A DNA stretch of 64,000 nucleotides from a virus. The notes under the pieces are model-generated. The model was not told the origin of the DNA. It saw only the letters and a list, made by a program, of their open reading frames with translations, and did not search any database. Shown piece by piece: positions 1-64,000 of this stretch. A program made the position numbers and the translations under genes. The stretch spans positions 17,796-81,795 of the IMG/VR virus record IMGVR_UViG_3300048834_000169; one strand, given 5' to 3'. Each line of letters starts with the position of its first letter. Within the stretch, counting starts at the first letter, position 1.

Positions 1-68
1 TTACTTAGTGTAGACGGACGATTGTAGTAAAGCTCTCTAGTTATTGCGATAAAGTTTAGCACTTGCAC
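1..68 (-). CDS. Hypothetical protein, partial (runs off window start; MQVLNFIAIT...)
   Basis: GTG at 68, preceded by AAGGAG inside the 3' end of the ankyrin gene; no stop before position 1. Confidence 0.4.
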   Translation of the reverse strand, partial: MQVLNFIAITRELYYNRPSTLS

Positions 69-754
69 TTCTTAAGCTCCTTAATAACGTTTTCTAAATA
101 TTGTACGACGTCTTTGTGTCCATTATGCGCCGCCTCGCGTAGCGCCTCGTCGTCACGGGCCCTAACGTTAGCGCCCTTTTCGATTAGGTACTGCACTACG
201 GCTAGGTGACCATTCTCCGCCGCGTTACGCAGCGCCTCGTCGTTACGGGCCCTAACGTCAGCGCCCTTTTCGATTAGGTACTGCACTACGGCTAGGTGAC
301 CGTTATCCGCCGACCAGCGTAGCGCCGAGTCGTCACAGGCCCTAACTTTAGCGCCCTTTTCGATGAGGAGCTGTACTACGTCTAAGTGACCGTTACGAGC
401 CGCCCAGTGTAGCGCCGCGTCGTTATAGGCCCTAACGTTAGCACCCTTTTCGATGAGGTACTGCACTACGGCTAGGTGCCCGTTAGTAGCCGCCCGGTGT
501 AGCGCCTCGACATCATCGGCCCTAACGTCAGCGCCCTTTTCGATTAGGTACTGCACGATGTCTAGGTGTCCATTCTCCGCCGCCCTGCGTAGCGCCGCGT
601 CGCCACGGGCCCTAACGTTAGCGCCCTTTTCGATTAGGTACTGCACTACGGCTAGGTGCCCGTGGCGGCTAAACTTGATTAAAGCGTCGCTAAGCTCTGT
701 TTGAAAATGTGCGGTACCGCTATTTACTTTGTTGTTGGTTAAAGTCATAGGCAT
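56..754 (-). CDS. Ankyrin-repeat protein A (6 variable 30-aa repeats)
   Basis: Tandem GHLxVVQYLIEKGAxVRAxxDxALxxAAxx units with a 90-nt DNA period; start may be 748. Confidence 0.95.
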   Translation of the reverse strand: MPMTLTNNKVNSGTAHFQTELSDALIKFSRHGHLAVVQYLIEKGANVRARGDAALRRAAENGHLDIVQYLIEKGADVRADDVEALHRAATNGHLAVVQYLIEKGANVRAYNDAALHWAARNGHLDVVQLLIEKGAKVRACDDSALRWSADNGHLAVVQYLIEKGADVRARNDEALRNAAENGHLAVVQYLIEKGANVRARDDEALREAAHNGHKDVVQYLENVIKELKKCKC

Positions 755-956
755 AATATACTGTATTTATTTCCAGTTGTGATATGATTTCGGCCCTATC
801 TGTGGACGTGGCTACCGTCTCTACGTGCATAACTTCGTCCCCGTGCATCTTTAACTTACGTAACTCAAAACCATCATGAGTCACTGCAATTCCAAGCACA
901 TAGTAAGGTCCTTTGTCTTCTTGTTTCATTCTAATTGATCTTCCTATTTTTGCCAT
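720..956 (-). CDS. Hypothetical protein
   Basis: AGGAG SD; upstream TGGACA-17-TAGATT promoter-like element. Confidence 0.75.
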   Translation of the reverse strand: MAKIGRSIRMKQEDKGPYYVLGIAVTHDGFELRKLKMHGDEVMHVETVATSTDRAEIISQLEINTVYYAYDFNQQQSK

Positions 957-1006
957 ATGTCTCCTATATGTTATAATCTAGCAAAAGCGCGAAACTATGT
1001 CCACAC

Positions 1007-2152
1007 TTACTTTTCAATCTTAACTACATCTTTATTATTATTATGCCAGCATACTGAGTAATACGGGCATATTAGGCTTCCATTCTTACAGGCTGACATG
1101 TTTCTCGGGAATACCTGGGCCTTTATAGCATGGTTAACTTCTTCGAAGTTCTGGATAGTTATGGCCTCCGTTTGTTCCGGGATATCTGATATAAGTACTT
1201 GGATATCCGCTGCCGGCCTCAGCACTTCTTCCCACTCTCCTGAACACCGCTTACCGCCTATTTCGTTATTACAGGTTCTAGCTCTGTTGCCCTCCCCGTC
1301 CATATTACACACGCTGCACTTCTTACTAGCGTTCTTATTAATAAGTTTTCGTAATACTATGAACCCTGCTGTCCTAGACTTAAGCTCATTCTCGAGTGCG
1401 TGCGAATATATAGCTAGTTGCGGGCTCTTTAGAACAGCGTCGGCTTCGTACTCCCTAGCCGAGGTTTTGTTATCAAATACTATAGTTCTTCCGTCTTCCC
1501 ATATGGCAATTAAATCTATAAATCCCGTAATAGAGTCTCCACTGTCGCTTTGAATATCGATTGCCCGCTGAGCGCTTATCACTCTTTTAATTCTAGGTAT
1601 AATCTTCTCTAGATAAGCTTTTATCATCAGCTCACCTTTAATACTTAAGCATAGCCAGTTAGCGTAGTTATAGTACTTGCGCTGATCGTCGTTAAGGTTA
1701 TTCCAGCCGTCCGCTTCTTTTTGCTTACCTATAGCCTTAAATAGGTCCACTAGATCGGCGTGATCCCCTTTAGGTAATGGCCCTACTCCTGGATATAGGG
1801 ACGTGGCCGCAGTAAGTAGCGCATCAAAGTCTTTATTAGACATTAACTTCCAGTCCATATCTGACGCTGCGTAGACTACATCAGGGTTATCATATAAATC
1901 TACGATCTTTTTATTAACTTCGCCTCGGCGCCAATTATTGATAAACGTGGTCTTATACGTCTGTCCTAGCCAGTCTATGTTATTTGCCGCATGATCATTT
2001 AGCATATCCGTGAGTGCCTTGTCTATTGCCGTGCCGAATAGTAGCGCCGCACTAGGATTTTTGGGGTACAGCTTTTCTATATACCGAAGTTTGTACTTAT
2101 ATGCACAAGTAGTATAAGTAGATACTGAACTATGGGATAACTTATTAGTCAT
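1007..2152 (-). CDS. PD-(D/E)XK nuclease (RecB/AddB/Cas4-like exonuclease) with Cys-rich insert
   Basis: N-terminal SHSSVSTYTTC, GFIDL...FDNKT, QLAIY, C-terminal C...CPYYSVC. Confidence 0.85.
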   Translation of the reverse strand: MTNKLSHSSVSTYTTCAYKYKLRYIEKLYPKNPSAALLFGTAIDKALTDMLNDHAANNIDWLGQTYKTTFINNWRRGEVNKKIVDLYDNPDVVYAASDMDWKLMSNKDFDALLTAATSLYPGVGPLPKGDHADLVDLFKAIGKQKEADGWNNLNDDQRKYYNYANWLCLSIKGELMIKAYLEKIIPRIKRVISAQRAIDIQSDSGDSITGFIDLIAIWEDGRTIVFDNKTSAREYEADAVLKSPQLAIYSHALENELKSRTAGFIVLRKLINKNASKKCSVCNMDGEGNRARTCNNEIGGKRCSGEWEEVLRPAADIQVLISDIPEQTEAITIQNFEEVNHAIKAQVFPRNMSACKNGSLICPYYSVCWHNNNKDVVKIEK

Positions 2153-2205
2153 GCTTATACACTAACTCAAATAATGCACGTTGTAAATAGCTATACTTTT
2201 GACAC

Positions 2206-2234
2206 TTGCATATACTAAGGTACTAATGTATATT
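2206..2234 (+). promoter_or_regulatory. sigma70-like promoter in divergent intergenic region
   Basis: TTGCAT-17-TATATT upstream of GAGGAG SD and ATG 2258. Confidence 0.6.
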
Positions 2235-2257: not shown

Positions 2258-2485
2258 ATGAAAGTTATACTAGAATTTGAAGTGCCCGGGGAGCAATACG
2301 AACTAGATTGTGCCCAAAAGGGGATGGCCTATAAGCACGCAGTGCAGGAGTATGATCAAGAACTTCGCAGTATTGTGAAGTACGGCGGAGAGGAATATTC
2401 GGAAGATTATACTAAAGCCGTAGCAGAAATGCGAAAGAAGTTGCATGATATATTTTTAAGTGAGGGGCTAAGCATCCATGACTAA
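2258..2485 (+). CDS. Hypothetical protein
   Basis: Strong SD; overlaps the start of the next gene. Confidence 0.8.
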   Translation: MKVILEFEVPGEQYELDCAQKGMAYKHAVQEYDQELRSIVKYGGEEYSEDYTKAVAEMRKKLHDIFLSEGLSIHD

Positions 2486-3395
2486 GAAATTTGACCTACA
2501 AGCATTTAAAAAGTCGCTTCAGGCGGCAAGCGTTCCGTACAAGAAAGAGAATTATATCCAATGGGACGATGCCCTAAAAGAAGTATCCGGATTACCTGGT
2601 CTACCTTTAGGCCATATAACTCAAATCTACGGACCTAGTAACGGCGGAAAGACTACCCTAGCTCTTACTTTGGCGGCAAAAGCGCTGCAGCAAAACGTGC
2701 TGCCCATATTCATAATCACAGAAGGTAAGTTTATGCCGGAGCGGGCCGCGACTATGGGCGTCGACGTGGATGCAGTCCTATCTGTTGACGTAACGTATAT
2801 CGAAGAGATTTTTGATGAGATTCATAAGTTCCTATCTGCACAAAGCAAGGGCGACATACCTAAAGATATTTTATTTATAGTGGACTCTATCGGAAATACC
2901 ATTAGTAGAGATTCTGTACGCATTGCTAAAGACGGTAATACTGAGGTTGGCGGCGCTATGATGAAAACGTCAAAAGTAATTCGCGAGCAGATGCGGGTAG
3001 TTAGTCATAGGATTAACGATACGCGTAAAGTAAATAGCCCGCATTTTGCAGGCCTGGTATTCATTAACCATTCGTATAAGCAGCCGCCAGCGTTTCCTGG
3101 AGGGCCTACTACAGACGTTCCTTACGGCGGGGATGGGATTTACTATTCGTCTAGCTTAGTTATTAAAGTGCGTAAGACACGTCAGCTTAAGGCCGTAAAG
3201 GACGGACGAGACGTTTCTTTCGGGATAGCAGCCAAGCTGGCTGTTGAGAAGAACCACATTAATGGGGTATCCAATGAGGGCCCTTTCTTAATTACTTCTA
3301 ACGCTATTATACCGGACGATCCTGCAGCGCTTAAGCAGTACAAAGAAGATAATAAAGATTCCTGGGGCAACGTAAAGATAGACGTTGAGGAGTGA
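2478..3395 (+). CDS. recA: RecA/UvsX-like recombinase
   Basis: GLPLGHITQIYGPSNGGKTT Walker A, FIVDS Walker B, GGDGIYYSSS, VEKNH. Confidence 0.9.
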   Translation: MTKKFDLQAFKKSLQAASVPYKKENYIQWDDALKEVSGLPGLPLGHITQIYGPSNGGKTTLALTLAAKALQQNVLPIFIITEGKFMPERAATMGVDVDAVLSVDVTYIEEIFDEIHKFLSAQSKGDIPKDILFIVDSIGNTISRDSVRIAKDGNTEVGGAMMKTSKVIREQMRVVSHRINDTRKVNSPHFAGLVFINHSYKQPPAFPGGPTTDVPYGGDGIYYSSSLVIKVRKTRQLKAVKDGRDVSFGIAAKLAVEKNHINGVSNEGPFLITSNAIIPDDPAALKQYKEDNKDSWGNVKIDVEE

Positions 3396-3676
3396 CTATG
3401 TACGCTTATTTGATGTTTATGGCGTCCTTTACTGCGTGTCCCGCTACTGAGATTATAAATAAAACTTTTATACCAATTAATCAATTTGATATGCGGCAGT
3501 TAAGTAGAGCGCAGTTACGTTGCCGACAGCTGTATAAAAAAAGCCCGTGTCTTAAAATCTTCACTAAAATAGGGGAGCAGGATTACACCGCGATTTGCGG
3601 TAAGACTCGCAGCGCAGAGGTTGCGATAAGATCGGTATCGCCCGACGACATTGATGCTAGTGTACCGCTATACTAG
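3392..3676 (+). CDS. Hypothetical Cys-containing protein
   Basis: GTGA overlap with recA, GAGGA SD. Confidence 0.7.
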   Translation: MTMYAYLMFMASFTACPATEIINKTFIPINQFDMRQLSRAQLRCRQLYKKSPCLKIFTKIGEQDYTAICGKTRSAEVAIRSVSPDDIDASVPLY

Positions 3677-3708
3677 ATTCTTAAGCTTGAGCAGAAGGTT
3701 ATATAAGT

Positions 3709-3909
3709 ATGTTAACAGTAGAGTGTCAAAACGATCTTAACAACGACTTAATCACGTTTAGTCGCTACGGTCACCTAGCCGTAGTGCAGTACCTAATCGA
3801 AAAGGGCGCTAACGTTAGGGCCGATGGCGATGCGGCGCTACGCTGGGCGGCGAATAACGGGCACCTAGCCGTAGTACAGTATTTAAAGAATGTTATCGGG
3901 GAGAATTAA
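3709..3909 (+). CDS. Ankyrin-repeat protein B (1 variable repeat)
   Basis: N-cap, one repeat and C-cap; first 96 nt identical to 61498-61593. Confidence 0.9.
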   Translation: MLTVECQNDLNNDLITFSRYGHLAVVQYLIEKGANVRADGDAALRWAANNGHLAVVQYLKNVIGEN

Positions 3910-3912: not shown

Positions 3913-4596
3913 ATGATACAGTATTTTAGAGATCTAACAGTGCTTCTAGTTGTCCTAATCTCAGTAACTGTATTAGCTGAAACACGTAAGAAAGTAGTTA
4001 TTATTGATTCTGGGATGCCGGAAACGTCGCAAGTATTGCCATACTTATGCTCGTCTGGTCATGCAGATTTCACTAAGACAAAGCTAGAGGATTATCACGG
4101 GCACGGTACTAACGTAGCCGGGCTAATAGCTAAGGGCCTTAATCCTAAGACACACTGTATGATTATTCTAAAATTCTACCATACGAAGGAGTTTCCTGGT
4201 GGGGCTCAGGTATCCGCCTCAGATAGTTACCTAAGAGCTTTAGATTACGCTAAAACTCTAAAGCCGCATATTATTAATCTGAGTCTTGCGGGACCTTACT
4301 TTATTCCTAAAGAAGCCGAGCTTATATCTAGTTTATTAAAAAGTGGTACCACAATCGTAACCGCTGCAGGTAATCTAAGGCTAGACTTGTCACAAAGTTG
4401 TAACGCATTTCCTGCATGTTACGAGTTTGGTATACCTGGTTTTTATGTGGTCGCGAGTCCGTCTATACTCAGCAATAAAAATGGTCCGGTAACTCATATT
4501 AGGGACGGTAATTATCAATGCGGCTTTAACGTATGTCTAAATGGAACTAGTCAGGCTGCGGCAAATTTTACCGCAGAACTCCTTACAGGCGAATAA
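3913..4596 (+). CDS. Compact subtilisin-family (S8) serine protease with signal peptide
   Basis: VVIIDSG (Asp), HGHGTNVAG (His), AAGN (oxyanion Asn), GTSQAA (Ser); hydrophobic N-terminus. Confidence 0.9.
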   Translation: MIQYFRDLTVLLVVLISVTVLAETRKKVVIIDSGMPETSQVLPYLCSSGHADFTKTKLEDYHGHGTNVAGLIAKGLNPKTHCMIILKFYHTKEFPGGAQVSASDSYLRALDYAKTLKPHIINLSLAGPYFIPKEAELISSLLKSGTTIVTAAGNLRLDLSQSCNAFPACYEFGIPGFYVVASPSILSNKNGPVTHIRDGNYQCGFNVCLNGTSQAAANFTAELLTGE

Positions 4597-4597
4597 C

Positions 4598-5032
4598 ATG
4601 AAGTGTACCAGTTCTAGATGTAATAATAAAAGACATCTTATTAAAGGCCTATGTAGATCCTGTTACGGTAAAAAATGGCGTAGAAAGAATGGACAACGTA
4701 ATGAGGATTATAGAAGAACGGCCGATAACTTAATATACAGAATTCATAGCCGAATGCGCGATAGGGTACTGGGCAAATATTGCTCAACTCCTAAACTATT
4801 TAAAGGTCTTGCCGTTGTAGCGTTTCCTAAATTTAAAGCGTGGGCAAAATCAGATCCGCAATTCTTAAAACTATTCAACGAGTATATAGGCAGTAATAGG
4901 AATATCAAGCTCGCACCCGTGGCCTATAGACTTAACCCAGATTTAGGCTATACTATAGGTAACATGGAATGGGTAACTTTTTCAGAATCTAGTAGAAGAG
5001 CTATCACAGCTAGAAGGAGATTTAGTAAATGA
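4598..5032 (+). CDS. Basic protein, possibly a degenerate HNH-like endonuclease
   Basis: N-terminal Cys motif; PVAYRLNPDLGYTIGNMEWVT resembles the PSxDRID..GY...N..W motif; ATG 4598 preferred over 4541. Confidence 0.5.
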   Translation: MKCTSSRCNNKRHLIKGLCRSCYGKKWRRKNGQRNEDYRRTADNLIYRIHSRMRDRVLGKYCSTPKLFKGLAVVAFPKFKAWAKSDPQFLKLFNEYIGSNRNIKLAPVAYRLNPDLGYTIGNMEWVTFSESSRRAITARRRFSK

Positions 5033-6336
5033 AGCGATACGTAATTGCGTCGGCGGTGCCGGGCTGCGCAGCTCATGATGGATTTTTATCCGCTATTAAA
5101 AATTACTGTGCTAGAAATAAGGCAAAGCTCCTTATCCTGCCCACGCCTCCGCTGGCTAAAAAGGACACGCTAGATCCAAAGCTTAAGACCTACGGTACTG
5201 TAGTAACAGAGGACTTGTCGCTAAACTCAAAATTAATGCTGTCTACTATCCCCGTAGGAGCTGAACAGCCAGATCCTATATCAGGGTTAGAACGATTATC
5301 TGGAATCGACACTAGCGTAATATACTCGTCCCCTAAGCAAAGATTAAAGTCCGTGGCATCTCCTAGCAACGAACTTCCTAGAGTACTAATGACTCCTGGA
5401 GCGGTAACGCGGCCTCACAAAAAACGCTCTAAAAGATCTTTAATCGCAAATTTAGATCACGTAATCGGAGCTATAATTGTAGAGGTAAAGGGATCATCGC
5501 TATATCATTTTAGACAAGTACAGGCTAGTAGAGACGGTAGTTTCATAGACTTAGCTAAAACTTATACGCCTGATGGTAAAGTACTCGAGGCTAATGTGGC
5601 AGCTTTAATTCCTGGGGACTGGCACACCGGATACACCGATCCTAAAGTTAAACGCATAGTCAAAGAGATTATGCACAGGTTTAAGCCTGATTATCTCTTT
5701 ATGCACGATTTATTTGACGGTATTTCTGTAAACCATCATATAGAGCATAAGCTTCTTATGAAGGCATTACTAGGCTCCCAGAATAGCTTGGCCTCTGAGT
5801 TACATAATACTGCTATCGAGCTGGCTGAGTTAGAGAAATTACCTAAGAAAAAACTCGTAGTAGTTAAGAGTAATCACGATGAATTTTTGGATAGATGGTT
5901 AGAGGCAGGTAATTATTTAGAGGACTCGCAAAATCACGTGCTCGGTCTGGAGCTAGCTTTAGCTAAAGCTAGGGGTAGCGACCCTCTCGAATACGGGGTG
6001 GCTAAGTACCAGAGGCTAAAGAAGACTAAATTTCTCAGCTCAGAGGAATCCTTTAAGATTACTAAGAAACAGATAGAGTGCGGCATGCACGGTCACTTAG
6101 GATCTAATGGCGCTAGAGGGTCTACTATATCCCTAGAAAAGGCCTACTTACTTTCAGTAAGCGGGCATACGCATTCCCCAGAAATTCAGCGAGGCGCTTG
6201 GGTAGTAGGTACCAGTTCCTACCTTAAGCTTAATTATAATAAAGGTCCAAGTTCGTGGATGCATACTATGTGCCTAGTGTATGAGAATGGCTCTAGGCAA
6301 TTAATTAACGTTATTAAAGGCGAGTGGCGTGGTTAG
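5029..6336 (+). CDS. Calcineurin-like metallophosphoesterase (T5 A1-like)
   Basis: GDWH, HDLFDG, SNHD, HGH, GHTHS, YNKGPSSW motifs. Confidence 0.75.
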   Translation: MKRYVIASAVPGCAAHDGFLSAIKNYCARNKAKLLILPTPPLAKKDTLDPKLKTYGTVVTEDLSLNSKLMLSTIPVGAEQPDPISGLERLSGIDTSVIYSSPKQRLKSVASPSNELPRVLMTPGAVTRPHKKRSKRSLIANLDHVIGAIIVEVKGSSLYHFRQVQASRDGSFIDLAKTYTPDGKVLEANVAALIPGDWHTGYTDPKVKRIVKEIMHRFKPDYLFMHDLFDGISVNHHIEHKLLMKALLGSQNSLASELHNTAIELAELEKLPKKKLVVVKSNHDEFLDRWLEAGNYLEDSQNHVLGLELALAKARGSDPLEYGVAKYQRLKKTKFLSSEESFKITKKQIECGMHGHLGSNGARGSTISLEKAYLLSVSGHTHSPEIQRGAWVVGTSSYLKLNYNKGPSSWMHTMCLVYENGSRQLINVIKGEWRG

Positions 6337-23773: not shown

Positions 23774-25786
23774 TTATACGCTAAGTGCCCACGCTCTAAA
23801 TTTAATCGTACAGGAAACGAACCCACTCGCATTGCCGGAGGTGTACTGTACCTGACCTGCGTTAGTAATAGTTAAATCAATACCTGAGAGGTCTCCGCTA
23901 GATGTTTCAGCAAGATCCCAAGAAGCACCTTTTTGGATGCCCCTGAGTTCTTTTACTTCATATGCGTCTGTGTCGGCGTCAAGGGTGATGGTCGCCAGGG
24001 CTTTAAATCCTCGCACTACGCCGTTAGCGAAAGCTAATCCGGTAACGTTAGCTGGAGATCCTTGGTTATTAGCCGCGCTAAAGCTAGTCTCTGCGATATC
24101 GCCTGCGCTAGCTCCGGCTGCTGCGATTTCAATAGATCCAGCTCCGTTAGTGATACTAATTCCAGCACCAGCGGTCAAGGTAGCAGCAGCGGGAGAAGCT
24201 CCAGTAGAGCCTATAAGAAGTTGGCCGTCAGTAAGGGCGGCAGCTTCTGACATTACGCCAGTGCCGTCGTTAATTAATACTCTGTGCGCGTTACCGCTAG
24301 CTAGTTTAGACCTAGCGATTGCAGCAGCGGCAGCTACTTGGGTATTTGTAATACCGCTATCAGCGACTTTTAATCCGTCAACTGATTTAGAGAGCGTAGC
24401 GCCGTCTAGCTCAAGAGCTAACTGCCCGCCCACTAAGTCCAGACCCTCGCCGTCGTGGTCGATGCTAAGAGGAGAGCCAGCTCCGCCAGCAATACCGTCG
24501 CCAGCTACTGAAGCGTTTAATTTGTCTTCGTTTACTGCGCCGTCCGTAATTTGAACGTCTGTAATACCGTTATCTGCTACTTTAAGGCCGCTAGCAGACT
24601 TAGATAGCGTAGATCCGTCAAGTTCAAGAGCTAGTTGCGTAGCTGTGAACTGAAGGCCTTGACCATCGTGGTCTACGGAAATGTTAGATCCAGAGACAGT
24701 GATACCGTCTCCGCCCACAAGAGATGAGCTGGAGTTAAAGAATACAAAGTCGATATCGCTTACGCCGATAGTAGCTACAGTACCAGACTGAACGTATACT
24801 TTACCGGTATTAGCTGTACCTTCTTGAACAGCTACCATTGCACCGTTAATTTCATCGATAGGGCTAAGGCTGTCAAAGTCTGTAGCCCTAACAGGAGCGC
24901 CAGAAGCTTGAACTACATATATACCGTTCTCAGTAGCATCGGCCTGATCTTTGATAAGAACGCGGTTGCCAGTAGCCAGTACTACGCCGTCTACGGTGTC
25001 GCCGTTTTCGAAGTCGGACGCTAAAGTCAGCGGGCCGGTAGTAGCTACGCGTGCTGCAGTTTTAGGCTTAAGTCCTTCAGCTACGGAGTCTACGTAAGCT
25101 TTGGTAGCAGCGTCGGTAGACAGCGTAGGGGCACCTAGTCCAGTAACTTTATTGCCGCCCATAGCTAGATCGCCTGACATGGTGTCGCCAGCTTTAGCTA
25201 CTTTATCGTCAAGTTGATCTTGGATGGCCGATGTGACGCCGCTGAGGTAGCTTAACTCAGTGCTAGTGGTAGCTGAGGCTGTAATAACGCCAGAGCCGTC
25301 TGACTCTAGCGCTCGGCTAGCGGTGACTGGGGCGAGTTTATCTAAATCAATATTAGCGCCAGCGTTAATTTCAGTATTAGTAACTGCTCCGGCTTTAATC
25401 TCTAAACCGCCAAGCTCTGTTGCTAGGATATCGCCTAAAGTTCCGGTATCTACGGCAGCGGCTTCGTTAGAAGCATTTCCAACTAAGATATGCTCTTCGT
25501 TTAGTGCGAGATCTACTTTATCGTCTAATTGATCTTGGATTGCGCTAGTTACGCCGTTAAGGTACTGAAATTCAGTGTTAGATACTGACCCATCGGCTAA
25601 CTTAGCTGCGTCGATGGCCGCGCCAGATTTAATGTCGGCGTTCTCGATGTTAGTTATAGTATTCTGATCGGCATCAATAGTCTTGTTAGTTACTGACTGC
25701 GCTGTAGACTCCTTTAACACTTCTACGCTGTTTACTGTGAGTGACGAGCCTTGTACTACTAGATTACCCTTAATTCTTTGTGACAT
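23774..25786 (-). CDS. Tail fibre-like protein
   Basis: GVTSAIQDQLDDK twice, DAATKAYVD, RVLIKDQADATENGIY, SVDHDG repeats. Confidence 0.75.
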   Translation of the reverse strand: MSQRIKGNLVVQGSSLTVNSVEVLKESTAQSVTNKTIDADQNTITNIENADIKSGAAIDAAKLADGSVSNTEFQYLNGVTSAIQDQLDDKVDLALNEEHILVGNASNEAAAVDTGTLGDILATELGGLEIKAGAVTNTEINAGANIDLDKLAPVTASRALESDGSGVITASATTSTELSYLSGVTSAIQDQLDDKVAKAGDTMSGDLAMGGNKVTGLGAPTLSTDAATKAYVDSVAEGLKPKTAARVATTGPLTLASDFENGDTVDGVVLATGNRVLIKDQADATENGIYVVQASGAPVRATDFDSLSPIDEINGAMVAVQEGTANTGKVYVQSGTVATIGVSDIDFVFFNSSSSLVGGDGITVSGSNISVDHDGQGLQFTATQLALELDGSTLSKSASGLKVADNGITDVQITDGAVNEDKLNASVAGDGIAGGAGSPLSIDHDGEGLDLVGGQLALELDGATLSKSVDGLKVADSGITNTQVAAAAAIARSKLASGNAHRVLINDGTGVMSEAAALTDGQLLIGSTGASPAAATLTAGAGISITNGAGSIEIAAAGASAGDIAETSFSAANNQGSPANVTGLAFANGVVRGFKALATITLDADTDAYEVKELRGIQKGASWDLAETSSGDLSGIDLTITNAGQVQYTSGNASGFVSCTIKFRAWALSV

Positions 25787-48615: not shown

Positions 48616-48984
48616 AAATCCAGGACAGGCCTAGAGTTGTGCAAAACGTTCACTAAGCTTACACGATGATTATACCGCCCAGAAAGCGCGAAAGCTTTAT
48701 GGGCTTCGCAACGATAGAGACTGCGCCTGATTTAAGGATACGTGTATGTACCCTTGTACATTATTAGATTTCACACTTTCGTTTAAAGGTCTCAGGATGT
48801 ACAGACATCCTAAGATGTCATTGTAGACGTATATAGTGCGTACTATACTATGTACTATATATAGTCCTATATTAGTACTCCCCCCTCCCCAGTAGGAGGT
48901 CTGTAATTTGAAATATAGCATTAGATCTTGCGCTTGTCAAATACGTGTGGTATTATTAACACTCTAGCAGACAAGAAAGGAATT

Positions 48985-49740
48985 ATGTCGAATATTCGTA
49001 CCACAATTAAAAGGAGTTTAAGAATTAAACTCAAGGTAGCTGCAGTGCTGTCAGGTATGGCGCTGTTTACAGGGGTAGTAGTGCTCCTGGGGGCATTGGC
49101 TCCAGGGCTTCATAACTCGTACATTAGGTCTACCGTAGGCGCTAAGGTAGTACGACTTACTAACTTAGCAGAGAATAGCGGTGGAACAGGATTTGCCCTT
49201 AAAGCTGCGTCTGGTAGGACTTATATTATAACTAACGCACATGTGTGTAATATTCCCGGCTCATATCTTTATTCCAGGGATGTTAATGGTAAGCGCATCA
49301 GATTTACCCGGGTAAAAGTGTCAATTGTTACAGATTTATGTGCCTTATCTAATCCTACGAATATTGAAGGTCTTACTGTATCAGGTGGAGTAGAGCTTGG
49401 GGAGACTGTGGGAATTCTCGGGCATCCTAAACTTCAACCACTGACACTTACTTTGGGTGAAATTGTTGGTTATGAGCAAGTGGCTGTGTTAGTTCGCCCT
49501 GGCCCATGTAAGCTAGAGCGCGGAATGTATAAAACCGAGCAAACAATCTCCGGTCCCCTGTGCACCCAGCTTGTGCGAGACGCAGGCCTTACTAACATAC
49601 CAGTTAGGGGCGGATCTTCTGGGTCTCCTGTAGTAAATTTTTTCGGTAACGTAGTGGGCGTACTGTTTGCCGGCGATGAGCTGGGATGGGGCGTTGTTAT
49701 TTCTAGAAAAGAATTAGTAAAATTTTTACGTAATTTATAA
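48985..49740 (+). CDS. Membrane-anchored trypsin-like (S1) serine protease
   Basis: TNAHVC, DLC, GGSSGSPV; N-terminal TM; AAAGGA SD before ATG 48985. Confidence 0.9.
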   Translation: MSNIRTTIKRSLRIKLKVAAVLSGMALFTGVVVLLGALAPGLHNSYIRSTVGAKVVRLTNLAENSGGTGFALKAASGRTYIITNAHVCNIPGSYLYSRDVNGKRIRFTRVKVSIVTDLCALSNPTNIEGLTVSGGVELGETVGILGHPKLQPLTLTLGEIVGYEQVAVLVRPGPCKLERGMYKTEQTISGPLCTQLVRDAGLTNIPVRGGSSGSPVVNFFGNVVGVLFAGDELGWGVVISRKELVKFLRNL

Positions 49741-58891: not shown

Positions 58892-59083
58892 ATGGACATA
58901 GAGTCATTTAGCACTATCCAGAGGATACTAGATAGACATAGTTTAGCTATACGGCATCTAGACTGGGGGTGGGCGCTGTACCTAAAGGACACTAAAACAG
59001 GCGCGGAGCTTAGGCATGTAACTAGCGCGCCTACATTAGAAGACTTATATAAAATAATTAAGGAGACTTATGGGACTAAATAG
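58892..59083 (+). CDS. Hypothetical protein
   Basis: Operon packing. Confidence 0.6.
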   Translation: MDIESFSTIQRILDRHSLAIRHLDWGWALYLKDTKTGAELRHVTSAPTLEDLYKIIKETYGTK

Positions 59084-59546
59084 AGTTTTTGTTTTAGCTG
59101 CACTGGCTGGATGCGGTACCGAATATCCACTATCAGTGAGCGCACCAGAGCCCGTAGGATGCCGGTCTATACCAGATTCACGAGGAGTGATCATAAGGTG
59201 CCCGGGCCATCCTGATAACTTAATTGAACATGGTGAAGATGGGGAGCAAGGGGCGCCGGGTTTAGGTGGTCCTCAAGGAGAAACTGGGCCACAGGGCGAG
59301 ACTGGGCCTCAAGGAGACCCGGGACAAAATACTAGCATGAGTGCAGTGGTCCCGTGTCTAGATACGGCGAATACAGCAACTCATCCAGAGGTTCTATTCT
59401 GTGTGAATGAGAAATTATATGCGGTCTTTTCGCCAGGTAACGCTAGTCTAATTAGATTGGTTATGCTGCTAGACAACACTAACTATGTTACTACCGATGG
59501 TAGAGGGTGTAACTTTAAAACAACGACTAGCTGTGAGCTAGAGTAA
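59070..59546 (+). CDS. Collagen-like lipoprotein
   Basis: LAGC lipobox; Gly-X-Y run GEDGEQGAPG...GPQGDPGQ; YVTTDGRGCNF tail. Confidence 0.85.
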   Translation: MGLNRVFVLAALAGCGTEYPLSVSAPEPVGCRSIPDSRGVIIRCPGHPDNLIEHGEDGEQGAPGLGGPQGETGPQGETGPQGDPGQNTSMSAVVPCLDTANTATHPEVLFCVNEKLYAVFSPGNASLIRLVMLLDNTNYVTTDGRGCNFKTTTSCELE

Positions 59547-59555: not shown

Positions 59556-59780
59556 ATGTTAGATTATTTAGTGGGTATAGAATATGCAGGTAAGTTATAT
59601 AGTGTGCCGGTATCCCTGAAGAGCGACGATTATTTCGAAGACCCGAGACTTATGGCGGCCCTAGCCGCGGAGGACGTACTAACTGACTACCTATCTGCTA
59701 AACTTAGGCGACCTTATAACTTAGTACGCCTATCCCTAAGGGTTATAGAAATTAAATCAGAGAGCGCGCATATATGTTAA
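59556..59780 (+). CDS. Hypothetical protein
   Basis: AGGGG SD; stop overlaps the start of ankyrin C. Confidence 0.65.
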   Translation: MLDYLVGIEYAGKLYSVPVSLKSDDYFEDPRLMAALAAEDVLTDYLSAKLRRPYNLVRLSLRVIEIKSESAHIC

Positions 59781-60352
59781 CAGTAGAATTACTAGATGAT
59801 CTAAACCGCGACTTGGTTACCTTTAGCCGCCTCGGGCACCTAGCCGTAGTGCAGTACCTCATCGAAAAGGGCGCTGACGTTAGGGCCCGTGACGACTTGG
59901 CGCTACGCTACGCGGCGGAGAAGGGCCACCTAGACGTAGTGCAGTACCTCGTCGAAAAGGGAGCCGACGTACGGGCCCGTAACGACGAGGCGCTACGCTA
60001 CGCGGCGGAGAAGGGCCACCTAGACGTAGTGCAGTACCTCGTCGAAAAGGGAGCCGACGTACGGGCCCGTAACGACGCGGCGCTACGCTGGGCGGCGAAT
60101 AACGGGCACCTAGACGTAGTGCAGTACCTCGTCGAAAAGGGAGCCGACGTACGGGCCCGTAACGACGAGGCGCTAAGCTGGGCGGCGAATAACGGGCACC
60201 TAGCCGTAGTGCAGTACCTCATCGAAAAGGGCGCCGACGTTAGGGCCTGGGACGACGAGGCGCTACGCTGGGCGGCGGGTAACGGTCACCTCGCCGTAGT
60301 ACAATATTTAGAGAATGTTATTAAGGAGTCTAAAAATGCAAGTGCTAACTAA
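59774..60352 (+). CDS. Ankyrin-repeat protein C (5 variable repeats)
   Basis: Same 90-nt repeat family. Confidence 0.95.
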   Translation: MLTVELLDDLNRDLVTFSRLGHLAVVQYLIEKGADVRARDDLALRYAAEKGHLDVVQYLVEKGADVRARNDEALRYAAEKGHLDVVQYLVEKGADVRARNDAALRWAANNGHLDVVQYLVEKGADVRARNDEALSWAANNGHLAVVQYLIEKGADVRAWDDEALRWAAGNGHLAVVQYLENVIKESKNASAN

Positions 60353-60833: not shown

Positions 60834-61529
60834 ATGCAACAGTTAACTAAATACTTGACCTATAATAACCCTAGCGCCGAAGTTCAGAATTGGATTAGGA
60901 CTGTGCTGGCCGCCACTATCAAAAAGGGCACCGAGAATCAGGTCGAAATAGAGCACATTCTGGACTTTTTAGCGTCAGACAAAGCGCCTACTAGACTTAA
61001 GAAAATGAGCTACGCGCAGGCTAAAGCTGCAACGGACAAGTGGAATAAGACCCTCATAAAAAAGGGCGAGCATATCCAAGAATCTGAGGCCGACATTAAA
61101 GTACTTAAGAGATTTAGCGACGGATTTAAATTAGTAGAGTTAGTCGGCGAAAATGCCTTTAAAAGAGAAGGCTATCTTATGCGACACTGTGCGGGGAGTT
61201 ACGCTAACAGGACTAATACTAAGGTCCTTTCTTTACGAGACCCCCTTAACATGCCTCATGCCACTTTTGAACTTCAACAAGATCAAATGAATCAAATTAA
61301 AGGCAAAGGGAATGGTTCTATCCACCCTGATTATATCAAAAAGGTATTAGCCGTGTTGAAAATGTTTAAAGTAGATGTTAGATCCTCTGAAATGGAGAAT
61401 CTGGGCTACATTGAAGTGAGCGATACAGTAGGTACTATGCTTAAAAAAGAGTTCACGGGCGCTAAATTTTTAAAGATAAAGGATAGCGAATATTTTTATG
61501 TTAACAGTAGAGTGTCAAAACGATCTTAA
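60834..61529 (+). CDS. PcfJ-like domain protein
   Basis: REGYLMRHCAGSY...LSLRD...HATFEL...QIKGKGN. Confidence 0.8.
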   Translation: MQQLTKYLTYNNPSAEVQNWIRTVLAATIKKGTENQVEIEHILDFLASDKAPTRLKKMSYAQAKAATDKWNKTLIKKGEHIQESEADIKVLKRFSDGFKLVELVGENAFKREGYLMRHCAGSYANRTNTKVLSLRDPLNMPHATFELQQDQMNQIKGKGNGSIHPDYIKKVLAVLKMFKVDVRSSEMENLGYIEVSDTVGTMLKKEFTGAKFLKIKDSEYFYVNSRVSKRS

Positions 61530-61878
61530 CAACGACTTAATCACGTTTAGTCGCTACGGTCACCTAGCCGTAGTGCAGTACCTAATCGAAAAGAGCGCTG
61601 ACGTTAGGGCCTGGGACGACTATGCGCTATGCGAGGCGGCGGAGAATGGGCACCTAGACGTAGTGCAGTACCTAATCGAAAAGGGCGCTAACGTTAGGGC
61701 CCGTGACGACGCGGCGCTACGCTACGCGGCGGAGAAGGGCCACCTAGACGTAGTGCAGTACCTCGTCGAAAAGGGAGCCGACGTACGGGCCCGTAACGAC
61801 GCGGCGCTACGCTGGGCGGCGGAGAACGGTCACCTAGCCGTAGTACAATATTTAAAGAATGTTATTAAGAAAGGTTAG
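61498..61878 (+). CDS. Ankyrin-repeat protein D (3 variable repeats)
   Basis: Same repeat family; overlaps the upstream gene by 32 nt. Confidence 0.95.
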   Translation: MLTVECQNDLNNDLITFSRYGHLAVVQYLIEKSADVRAWDDYALCEAAENGHLDVVQYLIEKGANVRARDDAALRYAAEKGHLDVVQYLVEKGADVRARNDAALRWAAENGHLAVVQYLKNVIKKG

Positions 61879-62263: not shown

Positions 62264-62641
62264 ATGCAAAATACTCAAAACGATCTTAACAACGACTTAA
62301 TCACGTTTAGCCGCCTCGGGCACCTAGCCATAGTGCAGTACCTAATCGAAAAGGGCGCTAACGTTAGGGCCTGGGGCGACTATGCGCTATGCGAGGCGGC
62401 GGAGAGTGGGCACCTAGCCGTAGTGCAGTACCTAATCGAAAAGGGCGCTGACGTTAGGGCCCGTGACGACGAGGCGCTACGCTGGGCGGCGATTAACGGG
62501 CACCTAGCCGTAGTGCAGTACCTAATCGAAAAGGGCGCTAACGTTAGGGCCCAGGACGACGCGGCGCTACGCGAGGCGGCGCGCTACGGTCACCTAGCCG
62601 TAGTACAATATTTAAAGAATGTTATTAAGAAAGGTCAATGA
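62264..62641 (+). CDS. Ankyrin-repeat protein E (3 variable repeats)
   Basis: Same repeat family. Confidence 0.95.
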   Translation: MQNTQNDLNNDLITFSRLGHLAIVQYLIEKGANVRAWGDYALCEAAESGHLAVVQYLIEKGADVRARDDEALRWAAINGHLAVVQYLIEKGANVRAQDDAALREAARYGHLAVVQYLKNVIKKGQ

Positions 62642-62642
62642 T

Positions 62643-62810
62643 ATGCTACAAGTACTGGTTATAGGGGCCGTAATCATGCTTATTATGCTTGCGGTATTTT
62701 CGGATTTAGAGTTCCTCATAAAAGCCATGTCGATCATTCTTCTCCCGGCGGTACTCATAATGGCTGGGGTAGTAACTGTCATAGAATATTTAGGAGAAAC
62801 TAGGAAATGA
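62643..62810 (+). CDS. Small two-TM membrane protein
   Basis: ATG 62643 after AAAGGT in the ankyrin E cap. Confidence 0.65.
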   Translation: MLQVLVIGAVIMLIMLAVFSDLEFLIKAMSIILLPAVLIMAGVVTVIEYLGETRK

Positions 62811-63034
62811 GATTGCTAGAGATCGTACAACAATATTTGGATACTAATGAATTCTCTACTTACGTAGACGAGCAATTTTGGTCGGGGAAATTAGTGAACG
62901 CGGATAAGGTAATAAACTACGTACTAATGATTAATCCGAGTATGAGGGACCATAGGCCGTCCGATGAGGAGTGGTTGAAGATATATGACGAGATTGAGAC
63001 GGCTTGGCGAGTGGCCGAAAAGGGGCTATCATGA
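62807..63034 (+). CDS. Hypothetical protein
   Basis: ATGA overlap. Confidence 0.65.
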   Translation: MRLLEIVQQYLDTNEFSTYVDEQFWSGKLVNADKVINYVLMINPSMRDHRPSDEEWLKIYDEIETAWRVAEKGLS

Positions 63035-63255
63035 GCGCTGATTATACTGAATATTTTTTAAGGACATTTTTACATTCACAGGGTAGAGTAGTCGATACTT
63101 CTGCTGGCGAGGGCCGCATTGAGACCGCACTTAAGTCCTCTCAGGTTATCGACAAGCTTAAAAACACATCCTATATAGTAGGGATGCAAGCCGGTAAGAT
63201 TAGCATAAATTATAATAAGTTTATGATAACTATTATTACAGGAGCGGAAAGCTAA
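63031..63255 (+). CDS. Hypothetical protein
   Basis: AGGGG SD, ATGA overlap. Confidence 0.6.
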   Translation: MSADYTEYFLRTFLHSQGRVVDTSAGEGRIETALKSSQVIDKLKNTSYIVGMQAGKISINYNKFMITIITGAES

Positions 63256-64000
63256 TGGCGACAATCATAGGTTATAAAACCGTCCTTAACAACGACTTAA
63301 TCACGTTTAGTCGCTACGGTCACCTAGCCGTAGTGCAGTACCTAATCGAAAAGGGCGCTAACGTTAGGGCCTATAACGACTATGCGCTACGCAGGGCGGC
63401 GTATAACGGTCACCTAGACGTAGTGCAGCTCCTTATCGAAAAGGGCGCTGACGTTAGGGCCCAAGACGACGAGGCGCTACGCGAGGCGGCGTATAACGGG
63501 CACCTAGCCGTAGTGCAGTACCTAATCGAAAAGAGCGCTGACGTTAGGGCCTGGGACGACTATGCGCTATGCGAGGCGGCGCGCTACGGTCACCTAGCCG
63601 TAGTGCAGTTCCTCGTCGAAAAGGGCGCTGACGTTAGGGCCCGTGGCGACGAGGCTCTACGCTGGGCGGCGAGTAAAGGGCACCTAGCCGTAGTGCAGTA
63701 CCTAATCGAAAAGGGCGCTGACGTTAGGGCTGATAACGACTATGCGCTACGCGGAGCGGCGCGCTACGGGCACCTAGCCGTAGTGCAGTACCTAATCGAA
63801 AAGGGCGCTAACGTTAGGGCCCAGGACGACGAGGCGCTATGCGAGGCGGCGCGCTACGGTCACCTAGCCGTAGTGCAGTTCCTCGTCGAAAAGGGCGCTG
63901 ACGTTAGGGCCCGTGGCGACGAGGCTCTACGCTGGGCGGCGAGTAAAGGGCACCTAGCCGTAGTGCAGTACCTAATCGAAAAGGGCGCTGACGTTAGGGC
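63255..64000 (+). CDS. Ankyrin-repeat protein F, partial (at least 7 variable repeats; not in ORF track)
   Basis: TAATG-coupled start, MATIIGYKTVLNNDLITFSRYGHL..., open to the window end. Confidence 0.95.
   Translation, partial: MATIIGYKTVLNNDLITFSRYGHLAVVQYLIEKGANVRAYNDYALRRAAYNGHLDVVQLLIEKGADVRAQDDEALREAAYNGHLAVVQYLIEKSADVRAWDDYALCEAARYGHLAVVQFLVEKGADVRARGDEALRWAASKGHLAVVQYLIEKGADVRADNDYALRGAARYGHLAVVQYLIEKGANVRAQDDEALCEAARYGHLAVVQFLVEKGADVRARGDEALRWAASKGHLAVVQYLIEKGADVR
63564..64000 (+). repeat. Exact 167-nt internal duplication at a 270-nt offset in ankyrin F
   Basis: 63564-63730 is identical to 63834-64000. Confidence 0.9.

What the first reader, a model, noticed from the sequence alone, without database searches (positions are those of the whole stretch)
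56..64000. Dispersed phage ankyrin library: six genes from one near-invariant 90-nt repeat, diversified mainly at binding-face codons
Seen: genes at 56-754(-), 3709-3909, 59774-60352, 61498-61878, 62264-62641 and 63255->64000 carry 6, 1, 5, 3, 3 and at least 7 repeats (25 variable segments) between related N-caps and, where visible, C-caps. The 54-nt framework (GGN CAC CTA GMC GTA GTG CAG TAC CTM ATC GAA AAG GGC GCT RAC GTT AGG GCC) is almost fixed, even at synonymous sites. The segment x-x-D-x-A-L-x-x-A-A-x-x changes by whole codons. Position 1 is R/W/Y/Q/D/C, position 4 is E/A/Y/L/S, position 8 is W/E/Y/R/N/G, and the last pair is EN/EK/NN/RY/YN/SK/IN/GN/HN/TN/DN/RN/ES. Established: these positions fall on the turn and first helix, the concave surface that is randomised in DARPin libraries. 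Inference: a recombination-driven binder repertoire that varies in repeat number, order and specificity codons, possibly neutralising host defence proteins or acting on a eukaryotic co-host. No dedicated diversifying enzyme is visible in this window.
Basis: partly seen in the sequence, partly recalled or inferred. Interest (0 to 1): 0.9.

Follow-up and report, generated by a model that had tools for sequence, protein, structure and literature searches.

The report
Phage family of eight ankyrin binders
A newly seen tailed phage carries eight small ankyrin-repeat genes built from copies of one 30-residue unit that differ mainly on the predicted binding face, which looks like a recently acquired, recombining family of binder proteins whose targets are unknown.

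Summary
The window is 64 kb of an 81.8-kb tailed-phage record. The six ORFs carry 6, 1, 5, 3, 3 and at least 7 in-register 90-nt units, 25 in the window. Two more genes lie outside it, giving 8 genes and 37 units, 5.3% of the genome.

"Near-invariant" is overstated. Units are 84% identical on average, the 54-nt framework 91%.

The repeat is a 30-residue short ankyrin, the type that dominates among the closest outside homologs, one of them a Moumouvirus protein. Variation peaks at unit positions 19, 22, 26 and 29, on one face of helix 1 and the loop before it.

Units and genes are mosaics: PHI p=0.002, and gene G is 93% covered by exact tracts shared with other genes. Variable codons connect by single-base steps, so ordinary mutation suffices.

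I found no reverse transcriptase, integrase or invertase. A RecA-like gene and a nuclease are present.

Five related phage genomes have no ankyrin, and ankyrin GC3 is 64% against 39%. This points to a recent foreign acquisition that then expanded.

Function, host and population variation remain untested. The scan noted this family before, in the neighbouring window of the same genome. Verdict: new variant of a known kind, moderate interest.

The parts
56..754 (-). Ankyrin gene D, 232 aa: long N-cap, 6 full 30-residue units, C-cap. Lies next to conserved replication and recombination genes.
   Evidence: ORF; Pfam Ank_4 E 1.8e-57; 30-residue spacing
3709..3909 (+). Ankyrin gene E, 66 aa: N-cap, 1 full unit, C-cap (two structural repeats). 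Sits between the RecA-like and subtilase-like genes.
   Evidence: In relatives G005 and G006 the matches to these two flanking genes lie about 500 and 830 nt apart, and no ankyrin was found in either record
59774..60352 (+). Ankyrin gene F, 192 aa, 5 full units. Units F2-F4 carry a private synonymous framework haplotype.
   Evidence: AlphaFold2 model pLDDT 88.2, with paired helices every 30 residues. Foldseek TM about 0.8 to designed ankyrins and DARPins
61498..61878 (+). Ankyrin gene G, 126 aa, 3 full units: a mosaic.
   Evidence: 93% covered by exact tracts of 45 nt or more shared with other ankyrin genes, the longest with E (1-96), A (64-144) and F (216-324)
62264..62641 (+). Ankyrin gene H, 125 aa, 3 full units.
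   Evidence: Shares exact tracts of 66 and 63 nt with gene A
63255..64000 (+). Ankyrin gene A, 5' part (7 full units in the window). After circular closure it continues at genome 1-215: 277 aa, 8 full units.
   Evidence: Unit A4 is identical to A7
63564..63730 (+). First copy of a 167-nt exact repeat inside gene A.
   Evidence: gene A positions 310-476 equal 580-746
63834..64000 (+). Second copy of the 167-nt repeat. Its last 127 nt are the record's 'direct terminal repeat'.
   Evidence: The contig starts and ends at the last 127-mer of this repeat
2478..3395 (+). RecA-like recombinase. Proposed, not shown, to drive exchange between units.
   Evidence: Pfam RecA E 4.5e-17; conserved in relatives
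1007..2152 (-). PD-(D/E)XK nuclease, a possible recombination partner.
   Evidence: Pfam PDDEXK_1 E 3.2e-19; conserved in relatives

Best explanation
An apparently virulent tailed phage of about 81.7 kb (no integrase was found) recently acquired one short-type, 30-residue ankyrin gene from a GC-richer source. It expanded this into eight soluble, capped, all-ankyrin proteins with 2 to 9 structural repeats.

The units diverge by ordinary point mutation. Amino-acid changes are retained mostly at four to seven positions that line one face of helix 1 and the preceding loop, the target-binding groove of ankyrin domains. The rest of the unit is held by purifying selection.

The conserved framework serves as homology for recombination or gene conversion between units and between genes. 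This reassorts variable segments and changes repeat number. The phage's own RecA-like protein and nuclease are the likely machinery.

The proteins most likely act inside the infected bacterium as a set of binders for different host proteins, for host takeover or counter-defence.

Shown: the anatomy, the fold class, where variation sits, the mosaic pattern, absence from relatives, and the odd composition. Inferred: selection for diversity, the recombination machinery, and the function.
For: Phage identity:
- Portal and large terminase; major head protein.
- DnaB helicase and PolA polymerase.

Ankyrin fold:
- Pfam hits over cut-off in all six window proteins.
- PDB sequence hits down to E 1.6e-69.
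- AlphaFold2 model of gene F: pLDDT 88.2, pTM 0.83.
- Foldseek TM 0.77-0.82 to DARPins and designed ankyrins.

One founder unit:
- 37 of 37 spacings are exactly 30 residues.
- The same residue uses the same codon at a given position.

Where variation sits:
- Entropy is 2.64, 2.10, 2.18 and 2.97 bits at unit positions 19, 22, 26 and 29.
- Entropy is 0.36 bits or less at positions 23, 24, 27 and 28.
- On a helical wheel, positions 22, 25, 26, 29 and 30 fall at 300-80 degrees and the conserved four at 100-240 degrees.
- Helix 1 covers unit positions 22-30 in the model.

Control with tolerant positions:
- Four helix-2 positions (4, 7, 11, 12) that vary in 135 outside units average 2.39 bits there but 0.40 bits in the phage.
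- Seven tolerant loop and helix-1 positions average 3.01 bits outside and 1.99 bits in the phage.

Substitution rates:
- pN is 0.49-0.66 at the four hypervariable codons.
- The framework has pS 0.163 and pN 0.054.

Residues and uniqueness:
- Trp, Tyr and Arg make up 45% of residues at the four hypervariable positions.
- 36 of 37 units are unique.

Mosaicism:
- Units in the same gene differ at 13.5 sites, units in different genes at 14.2 sites.
- Framework and variable-segment distances are uncorrelated (Mantel r -0.10, p 0.83).
- PHI p=0.002, and 389 of 741 informative site pairs are incompatible.
- 40 of 136 framework site pairs show all four gametes.
- Exact inter-gene tracts reach 109 nt.
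- Gene G is 93% covered by tracts shared with other ankyrin genes.

Ordinary mutation suffices: the codon sets are linked by single-base steps.

Recent and foreign:
- Ankyrin GC is 56% and GC3 64%, against 45% and 39% in 21 large ORFs.
- 0 of 5 related phage records have an Ank_2 match. Their TerL identity is 45-60%, and 4 of them are at least 95% complete.
- No protein in the 5.8-billion-cluster search exceeded 64% identity to gene F.
- Homology stops at the ORF ends.

Cytoplasmic location: no hydrophobic N-terminus or membrane segment; the maximum 19-residue Kyte-Doolittle mean is 0.99.

Recombination genes are present.
Against: - No expression, binding or phenotype data exist.
- The host is unknown.
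- Measured against silent change in the same codons, the excess of amino-acid change is small (pN 0.42 against pS 0.30). Old variable segments combined with a framework homogenised by conversion could give a similar picture.
- Incompatible sites and a significant PHI can also come from recurrent mutation at selected sites.
- Only 1 of 45 pairs of variable positions shows association at p<0.01. This fits free reassortment but equally fits independent mutation.
- The record comes from a metagenome assembly. Repeat order inside the longer genes, and the unit count of gene A, could not be checked with reads.
- Gene E, with two structural repeats, may be too short to fold or act alone.
- The RecA-like protein and nuclease are conserved in relatives that lack ankyrins. 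They are general machinery, not a dedicated diversifier.
Confidence: 0.6

Rival explanations
1. The ankyrins act on a eukaryotic co-host (protist or animal) of the bacterial host, as the sponge Ankyphage protein ANKp does. They would be released by lysis or exported by a host secretion system.
For: - The closest outside homologs use the same 30-residue repeat. They include a Moumouvirus protein, proteins with the N-terminal domain seen in that Moumouvirus protein, F-box-like proteins and a chytrid protein.
- A Babeliaceae genome was among the weak genome hits.
- Phage ANKp lowers phagocytosis and cytokine expression (passages of 10.1101/608950).
Against: - None of the eight proteins has a signal-peptide-like N-terminus. 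Two Ankyphage ankyrins do have signal peptides.
- No integrase or resolvase was found, so long residence in a symbiont is not indicated.
- The only public runs with traces are labelled sludge and freshwater, and they hold only pieces of 151-214 nt.
- The host is unknown.
Confidence: 0.15
2. A selfish or near-neutral repeat expansion. A recombination-prone repeat spread through the genome, and the variation marks merely unconstrained surface positions, with no selected repertoire.
For: - The same positions are the most variable in 135 outside units (Spearman 0.61, p 3e-4), so the profile is generic to the repeat type.
- pN/pS within the variable codons is only 1.4.
- Gene E is minimal.
Against: - All eight ORFs are intact, capped and strictly in register, with no frameshift in 37 units.
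- Helix-2 positions that are equally tolerant elsewhere stay almost fixed here, while silent sites in the same segment vary (pS 0.16).
- Trp, Tyr and Arg make up 45% of residues at the variable positions.
Confidence: 0.12
3. Assembly artefact. The copy number, the order of units, or the mosaics between genes were created by the assembler walking through repeats.
For: - The contig begins and ends in a 127-nt overlap inside gene A.
- That overlap is the end of a 167-nt exact internal repeat.
- No read-level check was possible, because only short low-depth contigs from two runs were available.
Against: - Every gene is anchored in unique, unrelated flanks.
- All inter-gene exact tracts are 109 nt or shorter, below the 127-nt word size implied by the overlap. 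The link between the overlap and the assembler's word size is my inference.
- Pieces of genes F and A occur in contigs of two other studies at 90-99+% identity.
- The eight-unit path through gene A is the simplest one that uses the 167-nt repeat twice.
Confidence: 0.07
4. A programmed diversifier, such as a diversity-generating retroelement, an invertase shufflon or another targeted mutator, rewrites the variable codons within a phage population.
For: - Variation is focused on a few codons.
- One gene lies on the opposite strand.
- The variable positions assort almost independently.
Against: - No reverse transcriptase match at E<=0.1.
- No tyrosine or serine recombinase.
- Codon states are joined by single-base steps and are shared between units by descent.
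- No promoterless donor cassettes were seen. All eight copies are full ORFs with start codons.
Confidence: 0.04

Closest known systems
Ankyphage ANKp, the sponge-symbiont phage ankyrin (Jahn et al., bioRxiv 10.1101/608950; passages read)
   Same: A tailed-phage genome encodes a small ankyrin-repeat protein as an accessory gene. That paper found ankyrins in 418 IMG/VR phage contigs.
   Different: - Here there are eight paralogs from one founder unit rather than a single described gene per phage.
- There is no signal peptide here.
- The repeat is 30 residues long.
- The sample is not shown to be host-associated.
Ankyrin expansions in giant viruses, e.g. Bodo saltans virus with 148 copies, read as a 'genomic accordion' (PMC5871332; passages read), and Mimiviridae repeat proteins
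   Same: - A viral multigene ankyrin family, clustered, with near-identical recent copies and read as anti-host binders.
- The same 30-residue repeat subtype as a Moumouvirus protein at 59% identity.
   Different: - The host virus is an 82-kb tailed phage, not a nucleocytoplasmic large DNA virus.
- There are 8 genes, not dozens.
- The proteins are ankyrin-only, without the N-terminal domains of the giant-virus proteins.
- GC3 is 64%, unlike the AT-rich BsV (25% GC).
Wolbachia and prophage WO ankyrin genes (Siozios et al. 2013, PMC3563639; passages read)
   Same: Ankyrin genes, some prophage-associated, evolve by homologous and illegitimate recombination. This includes duplication, deletion and shuffling of repeats and chimeric repeats.
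   Different: - Those are diverse 33-residue-type genes, often with other domains, in an obligate endosymbiont and a temperate phage.
- Here a single young unit family sits in a phage without an integrase, and framework DNA identity is far higher.
DARPin libraries (designed ankyrin repeat proteins; design rules recalled, structures matched)
   Same: - Capped stacks of consensus-like repeats.
- Variable positions 19, 29 and 30 align to DARPin positions 33, 13 and 14.
- Foldseek TM is about 0.8.
   Different: - This family is natural, not designed.
- The repeat is three residues shorter, so DARPin hairpin positions 2-4 are missing.
- Extra variable positions align to DARPin framework positions 6 and 10.
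- The framework is 91% identical, not 100%.
Diversity-generating retroelements of phages (Bordetella phage BPP-1 Mtd; recalled)
   Same: Phage-encoded binding proteins with variation focused on a few surface codons.
   Different: - No reverse transcriptase is present.
- Variation is spread over 37 germline units instead of one variable repeat copied from a template.

Membership tests
Ankyrin repeat superfamily (Pfam Ank, Ank_2, Ank_4) | Profile match above the curated cut-off | tested here: met
   All six window proteins match, e.g. Ank_4 at 190 bits against a cut-off of 22.7. The weakest is Ank_2 at 38.6 bits against 27.3
Ankyrin repeat superfamily (Pfam Ank, Ank_2, Ank_4) | Stacked helix-turn-helix-loop repeats forming a solenoid | tested here: met
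   The AlphaFold2 model of gene F (pLDDT 88.2) has paired helices every 30 residues. Foldseek TM is 0.77-0.82 at rmsd 2.6-3.0 to solved ankyrins
Canonical 33-residue ankyrin repeat with TPLH motif and beta-hairpin (typical, not strictly defining) | 33-residue period and a G-x-TPLH hairpin | tested here: not met
   The period is exactly 30 in 37 of 37 intervals. HMMER places a 3-residue gap at the hairpin, and D-x-A-L-R stands in place of G-x-TPLH. The same short form dominates among homologs: a spacing of 30 occurs 135 times against 32 for a spacing of 33
Ankyphage ANKp-like secreted phage ankyrin | N-terminal signal peptide (two of the described Ankyphage ankyrins have one) | tested here: not met
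   The maximum 12-residue hydropathy in the first 46 residues is 1.32 or less, with no hydrophobic stretch. This was a simple hydropathy scan, not SignalP
Ankyphage ANKp-like secreted phage ankyrin | Modulates eukaryotic phagocytosis or immunity | not testable with these tools
   Needs cell assays
Viral 'genomic accordion' of anti-host genes | Clustered recent duplicates of one gene family, absent or single in relatives | tested here: met
   Six of eight genes lie within about 8 kb. Framework identity is 91%. 0 of 5 relatives have any ankyrin
Viral 'genomic accordion' of anti-host genes | Copy number responds to host pressure | not testable with these tools
   Needs passage experiments or population data
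Diversity-generating retroelement | Reverse transcriptase gene near the target | tested here: not met
   PF00078 gives 0 matches at E<=0.1 in the whole record. The control genomes ring
Invertase or shufflon cassette switching | Serine or tyrosine site-specific recombinase | tested here: not met
   PF00239 and PF00589 each give 0 matches
DARPin-like binder design (analogy only) | Variable residues at positions 2, 3, 5, 13, 14 and 33 on a fixed framework with N- and C-caps (positions recalled) | tested here: inconclusive
   Caps are present. Positions 33, 13 and 14 correspond to hypervariable or variable unit positions 19, 29 and 30. Positions 2-4 are deleted. The extra hypervariable positions align to DARPin positions 6 and 10

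The most novel reading that the evidence does not exclude
The phage keeps a germline 'library' of DARPin-like binders. It continuously re-sorts binding-face cassettes among eight genes by homologous recombination, so that different proteins, and different phage lineages, neutralise different host defence or surface-remodelling proteins. This would be a recombination-based counter-defence repertoire, a kind not described for tailed phages.
Probability: 0.2. Interest if true: 0.8.

Novelty: new variant of a known kind. Interest (0 to 1): 0.55.

Why it matters
Single ankyrin genes in phages and large ankyrin families in giant viruses are both known. An eight-gene family in an 82-kb tailed phage, young enough that framework, variable face and exchange tracts can be read directly from the DNA, is a compact natural case of binder-family evolution. 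My searches found no description of this in phages.

If the proteins bind distinct host factors, the family would give a set of natural, stable, small binders. It would also offer a tractable model for how viruses diversify protein-binding repertoires without a dedicated mutator.

There is also a practical warning. The record's 'direct terminal repeat', taken as a sign of completeness, is an assembly overlap inside a repeat gene.

Tried and rejected
Population and relative comparison
- An exact framework pattern found 0 stretches in viral contigs and 0 in metagenome contigs. The own record may be left out of these scans.
- The look-up of sequencing runs listed only two runs, with 0.05 of the words each and no RNA holder.
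- Laying them gave seven short contigs (151-214 nt, depth 2-4) at 90-99+% identity. One sludge contig joins the start of gene A to a framework through 21 other letters. This is too little to judge repeat number, order, habitat or expression.
- The listing of cluster members found 3 of the 9 exact sequences, each a singleton cluster seen on 2 contigs. The other 6, five ankyrins among them, were not on record under my start codons.
- Closer relatives exist as proteins: TerL at 71-74% identity, one on an 84-kb contig. I could not fetch their contigs.

Host
- No tRNA was found in the window.
- megablast against phages gave no match.
- The best cultured TerL hit is 27.8% identical, a Silvanigrella phage.
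- The genome-contig scan with gene H gave only weak ankyrin hits (35-60% identity) in assorted metagenome-assembled genomes. No host call was made.

Rejected readings
- DGR, invertase switching and lysogeny-linked roles were rejected on absent enzymes.
- Duplication of a larger segment was rejected. Flanks are unrelated and the intervening ORFs have no paralogs.
- A repeat-binder family at the same place in relative G005 was looked for and not found. The region holds collagen-like, SLT, cytidylyltransferase and amidoligase genes instead.
- I made no complex prediction, because no candidate partner exists.
- The L011 record (304 kb) was not held, so its ankyrin count is unknown.

Full report
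WHAT THE WINDOW IS. The window is bases 17796-81795 of an 81,795-bp IMG/VR virus record that is flagged as having direct terminal repeats and as 100% complete. It is a tailed phage.
- It encodes a portal protein and a large terminase, and a major head protein.
- It encodes a DnaB helicase carrying an intein, and a family A DNA polymerase.
- It encodes a RecA-like protein, a PD-(D/E)XK nuclease and a dNMP kinase, and a dCTP deaminase.
- No tRNA is present.
- It is far from cultured phages. megablast gave no match, and the best TerL hit is 27.8% identical.
- No integrase or resolvase was found, so it is probably virulent.

THE OBSERVATION. ORFs exist at all six stated places. Their translations are capped stacks of one repeat.
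- Searching the whole record with gene F gave ten matches.
- After circular closure there are eight genes:
 - A: genome 81050..215, 8 full units
 - B: 2228-2881, 6 units
 - C: 3134-3706, 5 units
 - D: window 56-754, minus strand, 6 units
 - E: window 3709-3909, 1 unit
 - F: window 59774-60352, 5 units
 - G: window 61498-61878, 3 units
 - H: window 62264-62641, 3 units
- These give 37 full units, 25 of them in the window, with a spacing of exactly 30 residues in 37 of 37 intervals.
- Together the genes are 4,299 nt, 5.3% of the genome.

The number of genes is eight rather than six.

HOW UNIFORM THE REPEAT IS. It is less uniform than claimed.
- Mean pairwise identity is 84% over 90 nt. The 54-nt framework is 91% identical and the 36-nt variable part 74%.
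- 54 of 90 sites are polymorphic.
- Framework codons show synonymous diversity pS 0.163 and non-synonymous pN 0.054.
- One sub-haplotype (GGA GCC GAC GTA CGG) marks units F2-F4 and G3.

WHAT KIND OF REPEAT. All six window proteins pass the Pfam ankyrin cut-offs. PDB sequence hits reach E 1.6e-69. An AlphaFold2 model of gene F has pLDDT 88.2 and pTM 0.83, with helix pairs every 30 residues. It superposes on DARPins and designed ankyrins at TM 0.77-0.82.

The period is 30 residues, not the usual 33. HMMER alignments to DARPins and to ankyrin-1 place a three-residue gap in the hairpin, and D-x-A-L-R replaces G-x-TPLH.

This short form is not unique.
- The best outside proteins are 50-64% identical. 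They include a Moumouvirus 'repeat protein', Burkholderia and Achromobacter ankyrins, a chytrid protein and many unnamed metagenome proteins.
- In the 120 listed homologs the commonest motif spacing is 30 (135 times), followed by 33 (32 times).
- Their consensus unit matches the phage consensus at 24 of 30 residues.

WHERE THE VARIATION SITS. With the unit starting at G-H-L, entropy in bits is:
- hypervariable: 2.64 (position 19), 2.10 (22), 2.18 (26), 2.97 (29)
- intermediate: 1.55 (30), 1.42 (20), 1.41 (4), 1.10 (15), 1.06 (25), 0.84 (10)
- the other 20 positions: 0.60 or less.

In the model, helix 2 covers unit positions 3-11, the loop 12-21 and helix 1 positions 22-30. On a helical wheel, positions 22, 25, 26, 29 and 30 occupy 300-80 degrees. 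The conserved A-L and A-A positions (23, 24, 27, 28) occupy 100-240 degrees. The variable residues therefore form one stripe on helix 1 plus the residue pair before it.

By the DARPin alignment, unit 19 is DARPin 33, units 29 and 30 are DARPin 13 and 14, unit 22 is DARPin 6, unit 26 is DARPin 10, and DARPin positions 2-4 are missing. That DARPins randomise positions 2, 3, 5, 13, 14 and 33 is recalled, not taken from a call. The correspondence to the DARPin design is partial.

IS IT SELECTION? The evidence points that way but does not prove it.
- pN at the four hypervariable codons is 0.49-0.66. For the seven-codon variable set it is 0.42.
- That is 2.6 times framework pS, but only 1.4 times the pS of the same codons (0.30).
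- A cleaner control compares positions that are tolerant in the 135 outside units.
 - Four helix-2 positions (4, 7, 11, 12) average 2.39 bits outside but 0.40 bits in the phage.
 - Seven loop and helix-1 positions average 3.01 bits outside and 1.99 bits in the phage.
- Silent sites in the same framework do vary. The near-fixity of positions 7, 11 and 12 is therefore not just homogenisation.
- Trp, Tyr and Arg make up 45% of residues at the four hypervariable positions. 36 of 37 units are unique.

These results favour retention of change on the binding face. Strict proof needs more genomes.

HOW THE VARIATION ARISES. 'Whole-codon' replacement is not needed. At positions 4, 20, 25, 29 and 30 all observed codons form one network of single-base steps. 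At positions 19, 22 and 26 they form two. The same residue uses the same codon at a given position, which points to descent rather than convergence.

The units are thoroughly reassorted.
- Units in one gene differ at 13.5 sites on average, units in different genes at 14.2.
- Framework and variable-segment distances are uncorrelated (Mantel r -0.10, p 0.83).
- 389 of 741 informative site pairs are incompatible, and PHI gives p=0.002.
- Within the framework alone, 40 of 136 site pairs show all four gametes.
- Only 1 of 45 pairs of variable positions is associated at p<0.01.
- Exact tracts shared between genes reach 109 nt (F-G), 97 nt (E-G), 87 nt (A-E), 81 nt (A-G) and 75 nt (B-D).
- Gene G is 93% covered by such tracts, the longest shared with E, A and F.

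No reverse transcriptase, tyrosine recombinase or serine recombinase is present. A RecA-like gene and a PD-(D/E)XK nuclease sit at window 2478-3395 and 1007-2152, beside genes D and E. They are conserved in relatives without ankyrins. They are therefore general recombination genes, and their role here is my inference.

ORIGIN AND AGE. The family looks like a recent foreign gain.
- The ankyrin genes have GC 56% and GC3 64%, against 45% and 39% in 21 large ORFs. All units descend from one founder, so this counts as one observation rather than 37.
- An alignment-based TerL search found 14 related viral loci.
- I searched the five longest of those records (62.7-88 kb, four of them at least 95% complete, TerL identity 45-60%). 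0 of 5 have an Ank_2 match.
- Synteny with two of them is good over the structural and replication modules.
- About 16 kb around the F-G-H-A-B-C cluster has almost no counterpart in them.
- Genes D and E sit between genes that are conserved in both relatives.
- The corresponding arm of relative G005 holds unrelated genes.
- Homology between the paralogs starts at the ATG and ends near the stop.
- The intervening ORFs have no paralogs.
- No protein among 5.8 billion clusters exceeds 64% identity to gene F.

The family therefore looks like a recent gain followed by expansion in this lineage.

ASSEMBLY CAVEAT. The 'direct terminal repeat' is exactly 127 nt, and the same 127-mer also occurs 270 nt upstream of the end. 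It is the tail of a 167-nt exact repeat inside gene A, at window 63564-63730 and 63834-64000.

I read this as a de Bruijn-graph overlap at word size 127. That is an inference; the habit of assembling with k=127 is recalled. Circular closure and eight units in gene A form the simplest path, but 5 or 11 units cannot be excluded. All inter-gene tracts are shorter than 127 nt and each gene has unique flanks. The gene set and the mosaics are therefore unlikely to be artefacts. Reads could not test this.

FUNCTION (INFERRED). The proteins are ankyrin-only, 66-277 aa, near-neutral in charge, and have no hydrophobic N-terminus or membrane segment. Six of the eight lie in the plus-strand block of small, poorly conserved genes.

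I take them to be cytoplasmic binders of host proteins during infection. Action on a eukaryotic co-host, as shown for Ankyphage ANKp, is the main rival. The giant-virus-like repeat type favours it. The lack of signal peptides and of lysogeny genes counts against it.

COMPARISON WITH WHAT IS KNOWN.
- Phage ankyrins are known: 418 IMG/VR contigs, and ANKp lowers phagocytosis (passages).
- Viral ankyrin expansions are known: BsV has 148 copies, read as an accordion in an arms race (passages).
- Recombination, duplication, deletion and shuffling of ankyrin repeats, including in prophage genes, are described for Wolbachia (passages).
- A review table gives 33 aa as the standard unit length (passage).
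- My three searches listed no paper whose title or abstract start describes a multigene, single-unit ankyrin family in a tailed phage. The search for ankyrin, anti-defense and phage listed one unrelated paper out of two holders.

I file this as a new variant of a known kind.

EARLIER NOTES OF THIS SCAN. The neighbouring window's reader described the same family (e1-6118331). Other notes listed the shared tracts (e1-6118340, e1-6118332). I re-derived those numbers independently.

Noticed in passing
window 63874-64000 and genome 1-127: The record's 127-nt 'direct terminal repeat' is an overlap inside ankyrin gene A and also occurs 270 nt upstream of the end. The DTR flag reflects a repeat node in the assembly, not a physical genome end.
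   Followed up: yes
window 32923-36073: The major head protein ORF (32923-33939) and a 47-aa piece at 35930-36073 match adjacent stretches in relative G005 (4537-5544 and 4333-4464), but lie about 2 kb apart here. A homing-endonuclease ORF lies at 31161-32792.
   Followed up: partly
L009:12215-15178 (genome coordinates, outside the window): The DnaB-like helicase is interrupted by an intein (Hint domain plus LAGLIDADG endonuclease).
   Followed up: no
L009:6401-7381 (genome coordinates, outside the window): A phage-encoded alliinase_C / class I-II aminotransferase-like PLP enzyme (Pfam E 5e-24). A homolog at 31% identity is present in relative G006.
   Followed up: partly
window 26410-29277 and 23774-25786: Two large minus-strand structural ORFs share a 75-residue segment at 59% identity. 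The second also matches head-decoration and tail-fibre PHROGs.
   Followed up: no
L012 (IMGVR_UViG_3300035698_008348, 20 kb, CheckV completeness 5%): 17 Ank_2 matches, 14 of them over the cut-off, in about ten open frames within 20 kb. This is probably a fragment of a much larger virus carrying its own ankyrin cluster.
   Followed up: partly
window 3913-4596 and 48928-49740: The phage encodes a subtilase-like peptidase and a trypsin-like peptidase. Both have counterparts in relatives G005 and G006.
   Followed up: no
window 59070-59546: A 158-aa ORF just upstream of the ankyrin cluster has a collagen-like or tail-fibre-like stretch (PHROG tail fibre hits over residues 54-108). Relative G005 also has a collagen-repeat ORF in its accessory arm.
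   Followed up: no
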